9,729 bases of DNA from a virus. Lineage: Duplodnaviria; Heunggongvirae; Uroviricota; Caudoviricetes. This document shows positions 1 to 6,000 of the stretch, in pieces. The DNA lies in the IMG/VR virus record IMGVR_UViG_2675903368_000011, positions 1 to 9,729 of that record, one strand, 5' to 3'. A program made the position numbers. Position 1 is the stretch's first letter. Each line of letters begins with the position of its first letter.

Positions 1-3000
1 GCGTCGAACTGATTAGCCGCATCGGGCAGGAAGCAGTAGACGAAATCGAATCAAACCATAACCGCCATCGCTGGACTGTCGAAGAGTGCAAGGCGATCAA
101 GGCAGAGTACCAACAGAAACTCAAAGACCTGCGAAACAGCAGAAGTGAGGCTGCATGAATATCTACGAAAGAATTGATGGCAGCAAATACCGAAATATTT
201 GGGTAGCTGGCGACCTGCACGGATGCTACACGAACCTGATGAACAAACTGGATACGATTGGATTCGACACCAAAAAAGACCTGCTCATCTCGGTTGGCGA
301 TTTGGTTGATCGCGGTACAGAGAACGTCGAATGTCTGGAATTAATCACATTCCCCTGGTTCAGAGCTGTGCGTGGAAACCATGAGCAAATGATGATTGAT
401 GGCTTATCAGAGCGTGGAAACGTTAATCACTGGCTGCTTAATGGCGGTGGCTGGTTCTTTAATCTCGATTACGACAAAGAGACTCTGGCTAAAGTTCTTG
501 CCCATAAAGCAGAAGAACTTCCGTTAATCATCGAACTGGTGAGCAAAGATAAAAAATATGTCATTTGCCACGCCGATTATCCTTGTGATAAATACGAGTT
601 TGGAAAGCCAGTTGATCATCAGCAGGTAATCTGGAACCGCGAACGAATCAGCAACTCACAAGACGGGATCGTGAAAGAAATCAAAGGCGCGGACACGTTC
701 ATCTTTGGTCATACGCCAGCAGTGAAACCACTCAAATTTGCCAACCAGATGTATATCGATACTGGCGCAGTGTTCTGCGGAAACCTCACATTGATTCAGG
801 TACAGGGAGAAGGCGCATGAGACTCGAAAGCGTAGCTAAATTTCATTCGCCAAAAAGCCCGATGATGAGCGACTCACTACTGGCCATAGTTTATTGGTTT
901 TCGTAACTGAGTCATTTTATTATTTTATTGCAACTTTTAATCTTTTATAGTGCGAAATAAATGGAGCTGGCATTCATTTCGCACTTTATGTTTTTGTTGG
1001 ACTTATGTTATTTTGATTGAATTCAATTCAGTTAAAAAAAGAAGGTGATTGCTCCATTTATAAATGAATAGTCATCCCCTGTCTTGAATTCTGATGTTAC
1101 TTTATTAAATGCTAGTGTGAAGGCTACAGGTGCATACCCAATTGTTGCGCCAACTTGATATTCATCAACAGTTTTGTTTAGCGATACTGTTGTTTGTTTC
1201 GTCTGTATTGTTTTTCCTTCGAGAGTATAGTTGCGATTGACATCTCGTCTTTCCATACCTGCAAAAATCTTGTATTTGAATCCGCTTGTATCGGACATAT
1301 GCATTAAACCACGGGGAGCCAGCAGACCAAAGCCATTATCCGAATTGAAGGTTTTATCATTACCAATGGCAATGGTTGCGCCATATGCTACATATTGAAA
1401 TAAGTTTCCAGTAACAGCAGAAACTTCAGGGTATAATCCAACATTAGCACCTAAAATATCCATACTTGGTGTCATGGATAGCATCCCTTTTACAGTATAA
1501 CCGTAGCGATTCTCTATTTGATCATCCCATGCATGATATTTTTCTGCCCCAATAATCTCATGAGCTTTATTTTGTACTTTCTGACCGCCTGCGTCGGGGC
1601 CAACAACACCTATGTCAGTACCTAATCGATAGCGAATCCAGTCATTCGCAAGGGAGTTCCATTCAATACCAGTGTGAGTGTATGCACTAAAAGCTCTGTC
1701 TCCAGTTACAGCTGTGTTGTGTCTTTTATTACTGCCTGATGGAGAGTAAATATCTTGCGCAATATGGAGAGATAATTGGCTCGAGTCTGAGATATCGTGG
1801 CTATATCCCAGAAATAAGCCTTGTGAGTAATCATCTCTGTTTTCATGTTTATTGCCATAAATATCATTAAGTATTGGTTGAAACTTCCCTGCATCATCAT
1901 TTGCTAATGATAATGCAAGGCTGTTCGCGATAGCTGAACACGTGGTAAATGACAGAGCAATAAAGACGCCAGCGATGACACTTTTTTTCATATGTTATTG
2001 TCTTCCTTTTTTTTGAATGGTGCGCGTATTTTACATACATGAGTTTGTAATACAAGGTGCGTAATCAATATGATGTTTTATAATTGCGTGAGACAATTGA
2101 TTTATTCGTTTTTTATTGCGGTTTTTATTATCTTTTAATGTAACGGTGTTTTTATTAAGTGTGTTTGCGTGGTGTTTTATGTTTTTTATGATTTTTATTT
2201 TATTAAATTTAAATGCATTAGTAATGGCTATTCTATATAGCAATATAAGAACTGTTACAAAAAAAGGGGGGCAATTACAGGTAGTTATGGATGATGAGTG
2301 AAACAGATATTGGAGAACCGGGGAATGAATGATGTCTGAGTCTTATATATCAGAACTCCTTCGCTGTCGCTGGGGGCTCCTGTGCTTATGTCGTTTCCCC
2401 GATTCGGTTTTGAACGATTACCGAATGTTGAAGAATTATGCCAAAATATAGAAAGGATTTACTGCATGAATACCCAATATTTACAGTATGTTCGTGAGCA
2501 ACTTATGGCAGCTACTGCTGACTTGAACGGAGCAACGAAAGGCCAGCTCGAAGCCTGGCAGGAGCATGCACAATTTGATACTGGTACATACAAACGAAAG
2601 AAGCCGCGCATTCTGGATGTGGTAACTGGCAAGATGATTACGCTGGATAATACGCCGACTTCCGGTAAGCAGTCGTACGCAAAAGGTTCATCCATTGCTT
2701 TGGTCAGCCCGGTTGAATTCTCAACCTCTTCATGGCGCCGCGCGATTTTGTCTCTCGATGAACATCAGAAAGCATGGTTGCTTTGGTGTTACAGCGAAAG
2801 CGTTCGATGGGGGCATCAGGTCACCATAACGCAATGGGCATGGAGCGAGTTTAAAGATTTGTTAAGTAACAGAAAAATTGCAGGTAAGACACTGGATCGC
2901 CTGAAGACGTTAATCTGGCTGGCTGCACAGGATGTGAAGAGCGAACTTGCAGGGCGTGAGGCCTATGAATACCAGACACTGGCATCATTGGTGGGAGTGA

Positions 3001-6000
3001 CAACAAAAAACTGGTCCGAGACATTTACTGAACGCTGGGTTGCAATGAAGCACATTTTTCTACAGCTTGATAGTGATGCTTTATTGCTTGTGACGAGAAC
3101 ACGTTCAAAACAAAAGGCAGCATTTTTACAGCAAAATATTGCAAAACTGGATTAAAAGCCATATACTTCATGCAAATTTGGTATATTGTAAAAAATGTAT
3201 AAACCCGCTGCCGAGTGGGTTTTTTTTATGCCCTGAGTTGTACTTGTACGGTAAACATGCTGGCTGCTATGTAATAGAGTTTTTTTAGCCTGTAACCTCT
3301 TGACGGCATTGAATTGCTTTTGTTATGAGTTGTAAGCCAATGTTATCATCTTGTATTGGGGTGGTTATGAAGGATGGTGCGCTGCTCAGGAGTTCTTCAC
3401 TTTTTATTGCCTACATGGGATGCCTTGGATGGGGGAGTGCTTATTTCTATGGATGGGGTACTTCTTTTTACTACGGCTTCCCATGGTGGATTGTAGGTGC
3501 AGGTGTTGATGATGTTGCCAGAAGTTTATTTTTTGCAGTTATTGTCATTGCTATATTTCTTATCGGTTGGGGTATTGGTGTTGTATTCTTTTTCGCAGTG
3601 AAAAGAAAACATTCTATGCAAGAGCTAAATGTATTTCGCCTTTATTTTGCTGTGGAATTATTGTTTGTGCCGGCAATTATTGAGTTTTCTATATTGAGAC
3701 AGAAGATTCAGGTACCTCTTTTGCTACTGTCAGCAGCGATTGCGCTGGCGGTTACAATTTCGATAAGATCTTATGGGCGATTTTTATCAGTATCATGCTT
3801 CTATGATAAGCCATTTATAAAAAAACATTTTTTTGAGATTGTGATGATTGCTTTTGTGGCATATTTTTGGCTTTTTTCATTTCTGACAGGATATTACAAA
3901 CCACAGTTTAAGAAAGAATATGAAATGATTAATTATAATGATGGTTGGTATTATGTTCTTGCTCGTTATGATAATTGTCTGGTTTTGTCTACTTCTTTCA
4001 ATGCAGGTAGTAAAAGGTTTGTCATTTATCAATCAGCACAAGATAAGAATCTTCAGGTTGATATTGTAAGGACCAGAATTTAATTGGCTGCATAAATAAT
4101 ATTTTAAGTTGCAAGTTGGCTATTCGTAGGAATAGAACCTTAGGCATGCTGAATGCGTTTTCTGAACATTGTTTTATAAACTGTGTCTGCTTGCTGTTGT
4201 GATCCTGCTTTTAGTGATGGTGATGATGGATTTCACCAGCAGGATAATGTTGGTACTGACAGATGGCGCTCTGGTCTGCGGCATTGTGGTATTGCTGTGG
4301 CCGATGATGAAAGAACAGAATGAATAATTCTTGACTTTTTTGTTTACTGTTTATTAAAAAATCAACCGCATGGTGAATCCTCCTTGGAGGGGCTAAATGA
4401 TCGAGTTTTAAGGGCACGTAGCGAGTTCTGTTTGATCATTGCAGAACTTAGCGGGAGGCGCCATGCGTACATCACTAGTGTTATTCCTTTTATCATTTTC
4501 CTTGTGAGTTCTGGCTGCGCATTGCGCAGCCTTTTTTTTATGACCTGCCACTGGCAGATGGTCATCCTGTGATTTGATTCCGCTTCCGGCTTTTTAACAC
4601 TGTTCCTCTACACGGGAGAAATTCGATGTCGATTAAACATTACGATGTTGTCAGGGCGGCGTCGCCGTCAGACCTTGCGGAAAAGCTGACACACAAACTG
4701 AAAGAGGGCTGGCAGCCATACGGCGGACCGGTTGCCATTACGCCGTACACACTGATGCAGGCGGTGGCTATTGAAGGAGAGCCACAGGTCGGCCCTTCAT
4801 CTGAGCCGGATTGGTACTACGTCATCGTACTGGCCGGGCAGTCCAATGCCATGGCTTACGGTGAAGGGCTTCCGCTGCCGGATTCATACGATGCTCCGGA
4901 TCCGCTCATTAAACAGCTGGCGCGCCGCAGTACAGTGACGCCGGGCGGGGCTGCCTGCAGATATAACGATATTATTCCGGCTGACCACTGTCTGCATGAT
5001 GTGCAGGATATGAGTACGCTGAATCATCCGAGGGCTGACCTGAGCAAAGGGCAGTACGGCTGTGTCGGTCAGGGTTTACATATTGCCAAAAAACTGCTCC
5101 CGTATATCCCGAATAACGCGGGGATCCTGCTGGTACCATGCTGTCGTGGTGGTTCGGCATTTACCCAGGGCGCGGAGGGGACATTCAGCGAGTCCACGGG
5201 GGCCAGTCAGGATTCGGCACGCTGGGGGGTGGGCAAGCCGTTATATCAGGATCTGATTTCCCGCACAAAAGCGGCATTGCAGAAAAATCCCAAAAACGTT
5301 CTGCTGGCCGTCTGCTGGATGCAGGGTGAGTTTGACATGAGCGCCGCCACCCACGCACAGCAACCTGCGCTGTTTACAGCCATGCTGACACAGTTTCGTG
5401 CTGACCTCTCCGTGTTTAACGCGCAGTGCCATGGTGGCAGTGCTGCAGATGTGCCGTGGATTTGTGGTGACACGACGTATTACTGGAAAAATACATACGC
5501 TACCCAGTACGACACCGTGTACGGCGGGTATAAAAACAGGGAGAGTGAGGGCGTTTATTTTGTGCCCTTCATGACAGAAACCCGCCGTACTTCAAAGTGA
5601 AACCCGAGGGCTGGGATAACCAGTGGGCGGGTGATGAAGATTACCTGAAGTGGCTGGACCAGTGTCTTGCGCAGTTCTGGCGGGTGCTGAAACCTGCCGG
5701 AAGTCTTTACCTGTTCTGTGGCCATCGTCTGGCATCTGACACCGAAATCATGATGCGTGAGCGGTTTAACGTGCTGAACCATATCATCTGGGCAAAGCCG
5801 TCCGGACGCTGGAACGGGTGCAACAAGGAAAGCCTGCGGGCGTATTTCCCCGCCACAGAGCGCATTCTGTTCGCAGAGCATTATCAGGGGCCGTATCGTC
5901 CGAAAGATGCCGGGTATGAGGCGAAGGGTAGGGCACTGAAACAGCATGTGATGGCCCCGCTGATTGCTTACTTTCGTGATGCGCGCGCTGTCCTGGGGAT

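What the first reader, a model, noticed from the sequence alone, without database searches (positions are those of the whole stretch)
2330..3155. Candidate replacement antiterminator with an upstream 40-codon ORF; family unknown
The 229-257 aa protein occupies the Q position but lacks the features I associate with lambda-type or phage-21-type Q. A 40-codon upstream ORF (2330-2452, MMSESYISELLRCRWGLLCLCRFPDSVLNDYRMLKNYAKI) ends 13 nt before the best-supported start at 2466. Its function as an antiterminator is only a positional inference, and it could be a different regulator.
Basis: inference. Interest (0 to 1): 0.45.

Follow-up and report, generated by a model that had tools for sequence, protein, structure and literature searches.

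The report
Phage 82-type Q antiterminator with YlcG
This is an ordinary, already annotated late-gene antiterminator of the phage 82 Q family, preceded by the known small YlcG gene and followed by its own late promoter, pause site and terminator.

Summary
The small ORF is 2329-2451, not 2330-2452. It ends 14 nt, not 13, before the ATG at 2466.

The family is not unknown. The 229-aa protein (2466-3155) matches Pfam PF06323, the Q82 family, at E=9e-92. It is 88% identical, without gaps, to the Q protein of phage 82. It is 99.6% identical to the Q of a phage 434 record. About 620 of 5,426 complete E. coli genomes carry it at 99% or more DNA identity, annotated as antitermination protein Q.

The 40-codon ORF belongs to the YlcG family (phage 82 orf45). 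Here it is cut six codons short by point changes.

The end of Q and the DNA after it carry a module conserved in 58 distinct relatives:
- a -35 box, TTGCAA (3139-3144)
- a -10 box, TATACT (3162-3167)
- an extended -10-like pause element, TGGTATATT (3179-3187), placed for the +25 pause published for phage 82
- a terminator (3201-3228)

"Replacement" is literally true: the first 20 codons of a lambda-type Q survive at 817-876.

Verdict: already known, low interest.

The parts
817..906 (+). Remnant of a lambda-type Q gene. The first 20 codons are identical to lambda Q; the sequence then diverges and reaches a stop after 29 codons.
   Evidence: The translation is [20 protein letters not shown].... 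Residues 1-20 are identical to PDB 7ubm chain Q (lambda Q), E=2.8e-7. The phage 434 record annotates the same stretch as a lambda Q N-terminal fragment.
1032..1991 (-). lpxR-like lipid A deacylase gene on the opposite strand. It lies between the lambda-Q remnant and ylcG-Q and is context for the replacement.
   Evidence: Pfam PF09982 LpxR, E=6.8e-40. Annotated the same way in the phage 434 record.
2329..2451 (+). ylcG, a 40-codon small-protein gene and homologue of phage 82 orf45. Function unknown. It is six codons shorter here than in most relatives.
   Evidence: NCBIfam NF033498, E=7.4e-13, 48 bits against a cut-off of 30. PHROG 2705. 72% identity to phage 82 orf45. Found directly upstream of Q in 58 of 89 loci, as 22 distinct proteins. 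The early stop comes from substitutions: ACA CTG became ATA TAG.
2453..2457 (+). Shine-Dalgarno sequence AAGGA for Q, 8 nt before the ATG.
   Evidence: Read from the sequence. The AGGA core is invariant in an alignment with phage 82, PhiR47_2 and RothC. The phage 434 record annotates a ribosome binding site here.
2466..3155 (+). Q gene: a Q82-family late-gene transcription antiterminator of 229 aa.
   Evidence: PF06323, E=8.9e-92. PHROG 304, E=2.5e-108. 88% identity to phage 82 Q over 229/229 residues without gaps. 228/229 identical to phage 434 Q. Annotated as antitermination protein Q in E. coli genomes. The best structural matches of the model are lambda Q and AlpA.
3139..3167 (+). Predicted late promoter PR': -35 box TTGCAA (3139-3144), 17-bp spacer, -10 box TATACT (3162-3167). 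It overlaps the last codons of Q. The Q-binding element is expected in or near this stretch but was not located.
   Evidence: Promoter scan. TTGCAA is present in 57 of 58 distinct relatives, always with a 17-bp spacer and TATAyT or a near variant. PMC4914094 places the 82 Q-binding element and pause element within -31 to +30 of 82PR'.
3174..3174 (+). Predicted transcription start, +1 (an A, 7 nt after the -10 box).
   Evidence: Inference from promoter geometry. It puts the -10-like element at +9 to +14, which fits the published +25 pause of 82PR'.
3179..3187 (+). Extended -10-like sigma70-dependent pause element, TGG TATATT. The predicted pause is near 3198 (+25).
   Evidence: TGr + TATnnT lies at a fixed distance from the -10 box in the 57 regions that carry TTGCAA, with Q identity from 100% down to 33%. 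DNA similarity to diverged relatives ends just after this element, at 3184-3188.
3201..3228 (+). Intrinsic terminator tR': a 9-bp stem, a 4-nt loop and a T8 run. It would stop the unmodified PR' transcript after roughly 50-55 nt.
   Evidence: Terminator scan. The RNA fold gives -16.3 kcal/mol, z=-3.2. Annotated as a terminator in the phage 434 record. Most relatives carry their own, differently sequenced hairpin plus T-run at the same place.
4513..4539 (+). Second strong intrinsic terminator in the late transcript. It is also the 3' end of an STnc100-like element.
   Evidence: 8-bp stem with 7 G-C pairs, followed by T8. A sub-threshold STnc100 match covers 4338-4542. Annotated as a terminator in the phage 434 record.
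7796..7822 (+). Third terminator, a diverged copy of the one at 4513.
   Evidence: Terminator scan. Direct repeat of 4509-4808 and 7792-8091 at 87% identity. An STnc100 match above the Rfam threshold lies just upstream at 7599-7771.

Best explanation
The gene at 2466-3155 encodes a phage 82-type Q protein, the late-gene transcription antiterminator of a lambdoid prophage closely related to one sequenced form of phage 434.

The mechanism below is taken from work on phage 82 Q, which is 88% identical; it is inferred, not shown here. RNA polymerase with sigma70 starts at the late promoter that overlaps the end of Q (-35 at 3139, -10 at 3162, start near 3174). It pauses near +25 because sigma70 re-binds the extended -10-like element TGGTATATT (3179-3187). 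Q bound to its DNA site in the promoter region joins the paused complex through the beta-flap tip, helped by NusA, and stays on the polymerase. The modified polymerase then reads through tR' (3201-3228) and the later terminators (4513-4539, 7796-7822) into the late genes. Without Q, transcription ends after about 50-55 nt.

The 40-codon ORF upstream is ylcG, a conserved small-protein gene of unknown function. In most relatives its stop overlaps the Q start (ATGA), so the two are probably translationally coupled. Here an earlier stop leaves 14 nt, and Q keeps its own Shine-Dalgarno sequence.

Shown: family membership, gene order, and the conserved promoter, pause-element and terminator sequences. 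Inferred: the start site, the pause, the position of the Q-binding site, and the activity.
For: Family and identity:
- PF06323, E=8.9e-92, 307 bits against a cut-off of 25.
- PHROG 304, anti-termination protein Q-like, E=2.5e-108.
- 88% identity to phage 82 Q (X92588) over all 229 residues, no gaps.
- 99.8% DNA identity and 228/229 protein identity to phage 434 OL657226, annotated Q82-like.
- 628 E. coli genome records match at 99% or more identity and 618 cover at least 80% of the query; the listed ones are annotated as antitermination protein Q plus YlcG family protein.
- PMC9388147 equates PF06323 with the Q82 family.

Mechanism in the literature: the phage 82 late promoter (82PR') pauses at +25; the Q-binding element and pause element lie within -31 to +30; the beta-flap and NusA are involved (PMC4914094).

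Downstream module: it is conserved in 58 distinct relatives with Q identity from 100% down to 33%, while the sequence beyond the pause element diverges.

Terminator.

YlcG.
Against: Nothing was measured here: no transcription start, no pause, no Q binding, no read-through.

The Q-binding element was not located, and I could not retrieve the published 82PR' sequence to confirm the +1 assignment.

The window is a prophage-like mosaic that no complete E. coli genome carries in full, so expression in its host is not assured.

The window differs from its near-identical relatives by one base inside the pause element (TATATT against TATGTT) and by one residue in Q, Ile94 against Val. The effect of either is unknown.
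Confidence: 0.93

Rival explanations
1. The gene is an intact-looking but silent relic of a defective prophage. The protein is of Q82 type but no longer drives any late operon in this host.
For: The window is a mosaic. It is collinear with phage 434 only from about 900 to about 5500, then switches to a methylase-tRNA block and a second, diverged copy of the esterase module. No complete E. coli genome holds more than 79% of it in one place. No lysis or structural genes lie inside the window.
Against: The ORF is full length and 228/229 identical to the Q in a complete phage 434 genome record. The promoter, pause element and terminator are all intact and match the family pattern. The same gene is kept at 99% or more identity in about 620 genomes.
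Confidence: 0.12
2. The protein is a conventional DNA-binding activator or repressor with a helix-turn-helix motif that only sits at the Q position.
For: The model predicts mainly helices, with a helix-turn-helix-like stretch around residues 169-200. PMC9371919 describes C-terminal helix-turn-helix motifs in Q-like proteins. The phage 434 record hedges with 'transcriptional activator/anti-terminator'.
Against: It is 88% identical to phage 82 Q, for which terminator read-through has been shown in vitro with purified protein. It is followed by a promoter, a pause element and a terminator within 90 bp, which is the layout an antiterminator needs and an activator does not. No other Pfam family matches.
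Confidence: 0.03
3. The 40-codon ORF is not a protein gene. It acts only as a leader or upstream ORF whose translation sets the level of Q.
For: In all relatives outside the window/434 lineage its stop overlaps the Q start (ATGA), the classic arrangement for translational coupling. Differences from the window are mostly non-synonymous: 338 codons against 163 synonymous, summed over the distinct sequences. Thirty of 89 Q82-type loci lack it altogether.
Against: A core motif, RW..LRLYRFPGSVLTDYRILKNYAK, is kept across 22 distinct proteins. It has curated NCBIfam and PHROG families. The third codon position varies most: 34 of 39 columns, against 25 and 22 for positions 1 and 2. In E. coli K-12 it is reported as part of the rusA-ylcG operon and as induced in stationary phase (PMC12844172). 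In this window the coupling overlap is lost yet the ORF is kept.
Confidence: 0.2
4. The true product is the 257-aa form starting at GTG 2382.
For: The ORF is open from 2382.
Against: The extra 28 residues match nothing in the Pfam profile, which starts at residue 32 of that form. All homologues, including phage 82 Q, start at MNTQYL and are 229 aa. The extension overlaps ylcG. The conserved Shine-Dalgarno sequence precedes ATG 2466.
Confidence: 0.02

Closest known systems
Phage 82 Q antiterminator (GenBank X92588; founder of Pfam PF06323)
   Same: Same length (229 aa), 88% identical without gaps, and the same MNTQYL start. It is preceded by a YlcG/orf45 homologue. The loci whose Q is 86-88% identical share the TTGCAA / TATAyT / TGr-TATnnT late-promoter layout.
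   Different: 27 residue differences. In phage 82, orf45 is 46 aa and overlaps the Q start by 4 nt; here it is 40 aa with a 14-nt gap. The terminator has a different sequence and sits about 25 nt closer to the promoter than in the loci whose Q is 86-88% identical. The upstream neighbour is lpxR plus a lambda-Q remnant rather than rusA.
Q of Escherichia phage 434, record OL657226 (annotated Q82-like)
   Same: 99.8% DNA identity over 2200-3330 and 228/229 identical protein. Same ylcG, same terminator, same lpxR and same lambda-Q remnant. Collinear from about 900 to about 5500 of the window.
   Different: Ile94 here against Val. TATATT here against TATGTT in the pause element. After about 5500 the window leaves the 434 order.
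Lambda Q (PF03589) and phage 21 Q (PF06530)
   Different: No detectable sequence similarity: no Pfam hit at E<=0.01, and no PDB sequence or profile hit. PMC9388147 notes that 82 Q can load on complexes with long RNA and may therefore not form a closed nozzle.
AlpA of Pseudomonas aeruginosa, a Q-like antiterminator (PDB 7xya, 7xyb)
   Different: 11-15% sequence identity. The matches are weak and the model has low confidence. AlpA is chromosomal and controls a cell-lysis pathway rather than phage late genes.
YlcG of the E. coli K-12 DLP12 prophage (NCBIfam NF033498)
   Same: Family match above the cut-off, and a position just upstream of a Q gene.
   Different: It lacks the last six residues (TLKGAA-type tail) that most relatives have. 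Its function is unknown in every case.

Membership tests
Q82 family of antiterminators (Pfam PF06323) | Sequence match to the family profile above the curated cut-off, over the full length | tested here: met
   307.2 bits against a cut-off of 25. Profile positions 1-216 of 220 are matched by residues 4-219. PHROG 304 covers residues 1-221.
Q82 family of antiterminators (Pfam PF06323) | Collinear homology to phage 82 Q itself | tested here: met
   202/229 identical, no gaps, E=2e-153.
Q82 family of antiterminators (Pfam PF06323) | Gene lies at the end of the nin/early-right region, just upstream of the late promoter and late or lysis genes | tested here: met
   The NinI-type phosphatase gene (155-820) lies upstream. 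In the collinear phage 434 record, NinB to NinI precede the gene and a holin and an endolysin follow it. In PhiR47_2 and KO-TP1 a holin and an endolysin follow Q.
Q82 family of antiterminators (Pfam PF06323) | A cognate late promoter with a -10-like element in the early transcribed region, placed for a sigma70-dependent pause near +25 | tested here: met
   The sequence elements are present and conserved in relatives. The geometry fits the published +25 pause. The pause itself was not measured.
Q82 family of antiterminators (Pfam PF06323) | An intrinsic terminator shortly after the pause site | tested here: met
   Hairpin 3201-3222 plus a T8 run. Most of the 58 distinct relatives carry one at the same place.
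Q82 family of antiterminators (Pfam PF06323) | A defined Q-binding element recognised by the protein | tested here: inconclusive
   The element should lie within -31 to +30 of the promoter. That stretch is conserved, but part of it also codes for the end of Q, and the published site sequence could not be retrieved.
Q82 family of antiterminators (Pfam PF06323) | Terminator read-through activity, beta-flap contact and stimulation by NusA | not testable with these tools
   Needs in vitro transcription or reporter assays. Known for phage 82 Q (PMC4914094).
Lambda Q family (Pfam PF03589) | Sequence match to the family profile | tested here: not met
   No hit at E<=0.01 for 2466-3155. No PDB sequence hit to lambda Q chains. 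Only the separate remnant at 817-876 is lambda Q.
Phage 21 Q family (Pfam PF06530) | Sequence match to the family profile | tested here: not met
   No hit at E<=0.01. No PDB hit to phage 21 Q chains by sequence or profile.
YlcG family (NCBIfam NF033498) | Sequence match above the curated cut-off | tested here: met
   48 bits against a cut-off of 30; residues 5-40 match profile positions 3-38 of 41. PHROG 2705, E=2.1e-12.
YlcG family (NCBIfam NF033498) | Small ORF immediately upstream of a prophage Q gene | tested here: met
   58 of 89 Q82-type loci have it directly upstream. Here it lies 14 nt upstream.

The most novel reading that the evidence does not exclude
The least ordinary reading still open concerns two small changes that could retune the late switch in this lineage or this window. 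First, the early stop in ylcG removes the ATGA overlap with Q. Second, a single base change makes the pause element closer to the -10 consensus (TATATT instead of TATGTT). A related possibility is that YlcG is a working partner of Q82-type antitermination rather than a passenger, given how often it is fused to the Q start. Neither would be a new kind of system.
Probability: 0.1. Interest if true: 0.3.

Novelty: already known. Interest (0 to 1): 0.07.

Why it matters
It matters little as a discovery. The gene, its family and its neighbour are already named in public annotation, and the mechanism has been studied for decades with the 88%-identical phage 82 protein.

The useful outcome is a clean annotation of this window:
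- the late-gene switch (ylcG, Q, PR', pause element, tR')
- the visible scar of the lambda-type Q it replaced

One wider point stands. No member of the Q82 family has a solved structure in the 2026 PDB copy searched. How this family blocks termination is listed as an open question (PMC9388147). That question belongs to the family, not to this locus.

Tried and rejected
- **Published 82PR' sequence.** I looked for it to fix +1 and the Q-binding element. The supplement of PMC4914094 is not held, a sequence-string search of the paper library found nothing relevant, and PMC207295 is not held. The start site therefore stays an inference.
- **PDB by sequence.** Searching with the single protein and with an 8-sequence profile gave no meaningful hit.
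- **Structure prediction.** The available alignment held only sequences 72-89% identical to the query. It gave a poor model (pLDDT 63.8; four of five models near 40). I use the fold matches only as weak supporting evidence.
- **CII-dependent antisense promoter (paQ).** The phage 434 record annotates one at 3131-3144 on the minus strand. The pattern TTGYN6TTGY occurs 3 times in the window against 2.96 expected by chance, so the sequence alone gives no support.
- **Alternative late promoter at 3300-3349** (TTGACG/TTGTTA ... TATCAT). Rejected as PR' because it lies after the conserved module and after the terminator. It may serve the membrane-protein gene.
- **The 257-aa start at 2382.** Rejected.

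
Full report
**1. What is there**

The window reads like the right arm of a lambdoid prophage. In order it holds:
- a NinI-type phosphatase gene (155-820)
- an lpxR-like gene on the opposite strand (1032-1991)
- a 40-codon ORF (2329-2451)
- a long ORF ending at 3155
- a membrane-protein gene
- two copies of a DUF1737/SASA esterase module
- a DNA methylase gene and two tRNA genes

The gap to the ATG at 2466 is 14 nt, not 13.

**2. Identity of the long ORF**

- The 229-aa product from ATG 2466 matches Pfam PF06323 (Phage_antiter_Q) at E=8.9e-92, 307 bits against a cut-off of 25, over almost the whole profile. No other Pfam family matches at E<=0.01.
- It matches PHROG 304, "anti-termination protein Q-like", at E=2.5e-108.
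- It is 88% identical (202/229, no gaps) to the Q protein of phage 82 in GenBank X92588.
- It is 228/229 identical to the gene annotated "Q82-like" in phage 434 record OL657226.
- The 1131-bp stretch 2200-3330 occurs at 99% or more identity in 628 complete E. coli genome records. The listed ones annotate it as "bacteriophage antitermination protein Q" and "YlcG family protein".
- A protein search found 2,639 relatives. All 120 listed carry PF06323, and those with a source name are called antitermination protein or antiterminator.
- PMC9388147 states that Q proteins fall into three families, Q21 (PF06530), Q-lambda (PF03589) and Q82 (PF06323), with no obvious sequence similarity between them.

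**3. Start codon**

ATG 2466 is the start, for these reasons:
- Phage 82 Q and all aligned relatives begin MNTQYL or close variants and are 229 aa.
- The Pfam profile begins at residue 4 of this form.
- AAGGA lies 8 nt upstream, and its AGGA core is invariant across phage 82, PhiR47_2 and RothC.
- The 257-aa form from GTG 2382 only adds residues that overlap ylcG in another frame.

**4. The upstream ORF**

- It matches NCBIfam NF033498 (YlcG family; 48 bits against a cut-off of 30) and PHROG 2705. It is 72% identical to phage 82 orf45.
- I examined 89 Q82-type loci: the window, 8 phage records and 80 IMG/VR contigs. A YlcG-like ORF lies directly upstream of Q in 58 of them, as 22 distinct proteins sharing the core RW..LRLYRFPGSVLTDYRILKNYAK.
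- In every case outside the window/434 lineage the ORF is 45-48 codons and its stop overlaps the Q start as ATGA. That arrangement suggests translational coupling.
- In the window the alignment with phage 82 shows no insertion or deletion. ACA CTG has become ATA TAG, which stops the ORF six codons early and leaves the 14-nt spacer.
- Thirty loci lack ylcG, and there rusA or ninG abuts Q. YlcG is therefore frequent but not obligatory.
- In E. coli K-12, rusA-ylcG is described as an operon and ylcG as induced in stationary phase (PMC12844172). No function is known.

**5. "Replacement" is literally visible**

Directly after the phosphatase gene, 817-876 encodes [20 protein letters not shown]. These are the first 20 residues of lambda Q, identical to PDB 7ubm chain Q (E=2.8e-7). 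The reading frame then diverges and stops at 904-906. The phage 434 record annotates the same fragment. A block holding lpxR, ylcG and the Q82-type gene has therefore taken the place of most of a lambda-type Q gene.

**6. The module that Q acts on**

A sigma70-type promoter overlaps the end of Q: TTGCAA at 3139-3144, a 17-bp spacer, and TATACT at 3162-3167. Eleven bases after the -10 box comes TGG TATATT (3179-3187), which has the form of an extended -10 element. A 9-bp hairpin with a T8 run follows at 3201-3228.

I compared 58 distinct downstream sequences from loci whose Q is 100% down to 33% identical:
- 57 of 58 have TTGCAA.
- All of those 57 have the 17-bp spacer, a TATAyT-like -10 box, and TGr + TATnnT at the same distance.
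- Most have a hairpin with a T-run ending 84-117 nt after the start of the -35 box, although the hairpin sequences differ.
- BLAST similarity to diverged relatives stops at 3184-3188, just after the -10-like element.

If transcription starts at A3174, 7 nt after the -10 box, the -10-like hexamer lies at +9 to +14. A pause about 11 nt further on falls at +25. That is the published pause position of 82PR', whose Q-binding and pause elements lie within -31 to +30 (PMC4914094). The start, the pause and the Q-binding site are inferences. I could not retrieve the published promoter sequence.

**7. Mechanism**

This is taken from work on phage 82 Q and is not tested here. Q binds its DNA site and joins the sigma70-paused early elongation complex through the beta-flap tip helix with help from NusA. 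It remains on the polymerase and makes it resistant to terminators (PMC4914094; PMC9388147).

In this window the first terminator to be overcome is 3201-3228. Each lies at or shortly after the 3' end of an STnc100-like element.

**8. Structure**

- No PDB chain matches the protein by sequence or by profile.
- An AlphaFold2 model from a shallow alignment of 46 sequences, 72-89% identical to the query, is poor overall: pLDDT 63.8, pTM 0.54. Residues about 90-220 score 70-87 in most 10-residue blocks.
- Even so, the two best Foldseek hits among 350,542 chains are the AlpA antiterminator (7xyb_G and 7xya_G; probability 0.90, E about 0.3).
- This agrees with PMC9371919, which had already reported that an AlphaFold model of 82 Q resembles AlpA.

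I treat these matches as weak support, not proof.

**9. Rivals**

- A silent relic in a defective prophage remains possible, because the window is a mosaic. All parts of the switch are intact, however.
- A plain activator or repressor is very unlikely, given the identity to a biochemically proven antiterminator and the promoter-pause-terminator layout.
- The idea that ylcG is only a coupling leader is not excluded, but the conserved protein motif and its retention here without the overlap argue for a real small protein.

**10. Verdict**

The finding is a correct positional guess about a well-known gene. It is already annotated in public records, and nothing in the locus departs from the Q82 pattern beyond two small lineage-specific changes: the early ylcG stop and one base in the pause element. 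Novelty: already known. Interest: low.

Noticed in passing
window 817-906 (+): A truncated lambda-type Q gene. The first 20 codons are identical to lambda Q; the frame then diverges and stops after 29 codons. Its ATG overlaps the stop of the phosphatase gene.
   Followed up: yes
window 1032-1991 (-): An lpxR-like lipid A deacylase gene (PF09982, E=6.8e-40) sits on the opposite strand between the lambda-Q remnant and ylcG. It looks like prophage cargo. An AT-rich stretch of about 340 nt separates it from ylcG.
   Followed up: partly
window 3182-3187: The pause-element hexamer is TATATT here, but TATGTT in the near-identical relatives (Q 99% or more identical), including phage 434. This single base change brings it closer to the -10 consensus. 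The one protein difference from phage 434 Q is Ile94 against Val.
   Followed up: partly
window 3162-3231 (+): A weak, sub-threshold Rfam match to the enterobacterial sRNA STnc240 (29.3 bits against a gathering score of 55, E=0.07). It spans the stretch from the -10 box to the end of the terminator. The sRNA family might be the short PR'-tR' transcript of related prophages.
   Followed up: no
window 4178-5600 and 7436-8880 (+): Two diverged copies (81-87% identical) of one module: a small DUF3927/TciB-like membrane ORF, an STnc100-like RNA (7599-7771 above the Rfam threshold at 101.5 bits; 4338-4542 below it at 41.4 bits), a strong terminator, and the start of a DUF1737/SASA esterase gene.
   Followed up: partly
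window about 5400-5700: Collinearity with phage 434 ends inside the first esterase gene. That gene is 324 aa here against a CDS of about 616 codons in the phage 434 record. A DNA methylase gene (5597-6526), tRNA-Met (6576-6651) and tRNA-Arg(UCU) (6752-6828) follow. No complete E. coli genome holds more than 79% of the window in one place, so this junction is a recombination point or an assembly chimera.
   Followed up: partly
window 3131-3144 (-): TTGCAATATTTTGC fits the lambda CII box TTGCN6TTGC and overlaps the -35 box of the late promoter. The phage 434 record calls it paQ. The looser pattern TTGYN6TTGY occurs 3 times in the window against 2.96 expected, so the sequence alone does not support it.
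   Followed up: yes
window 3325-4083 (+): A membrane-protein gene with no known function is the first gene after tR'. It matches PHROG 1521 at E=2e-154 and has no Pfam hit. The phage 434 record starts it at the position equivalent to 3340.
   Followed up: no
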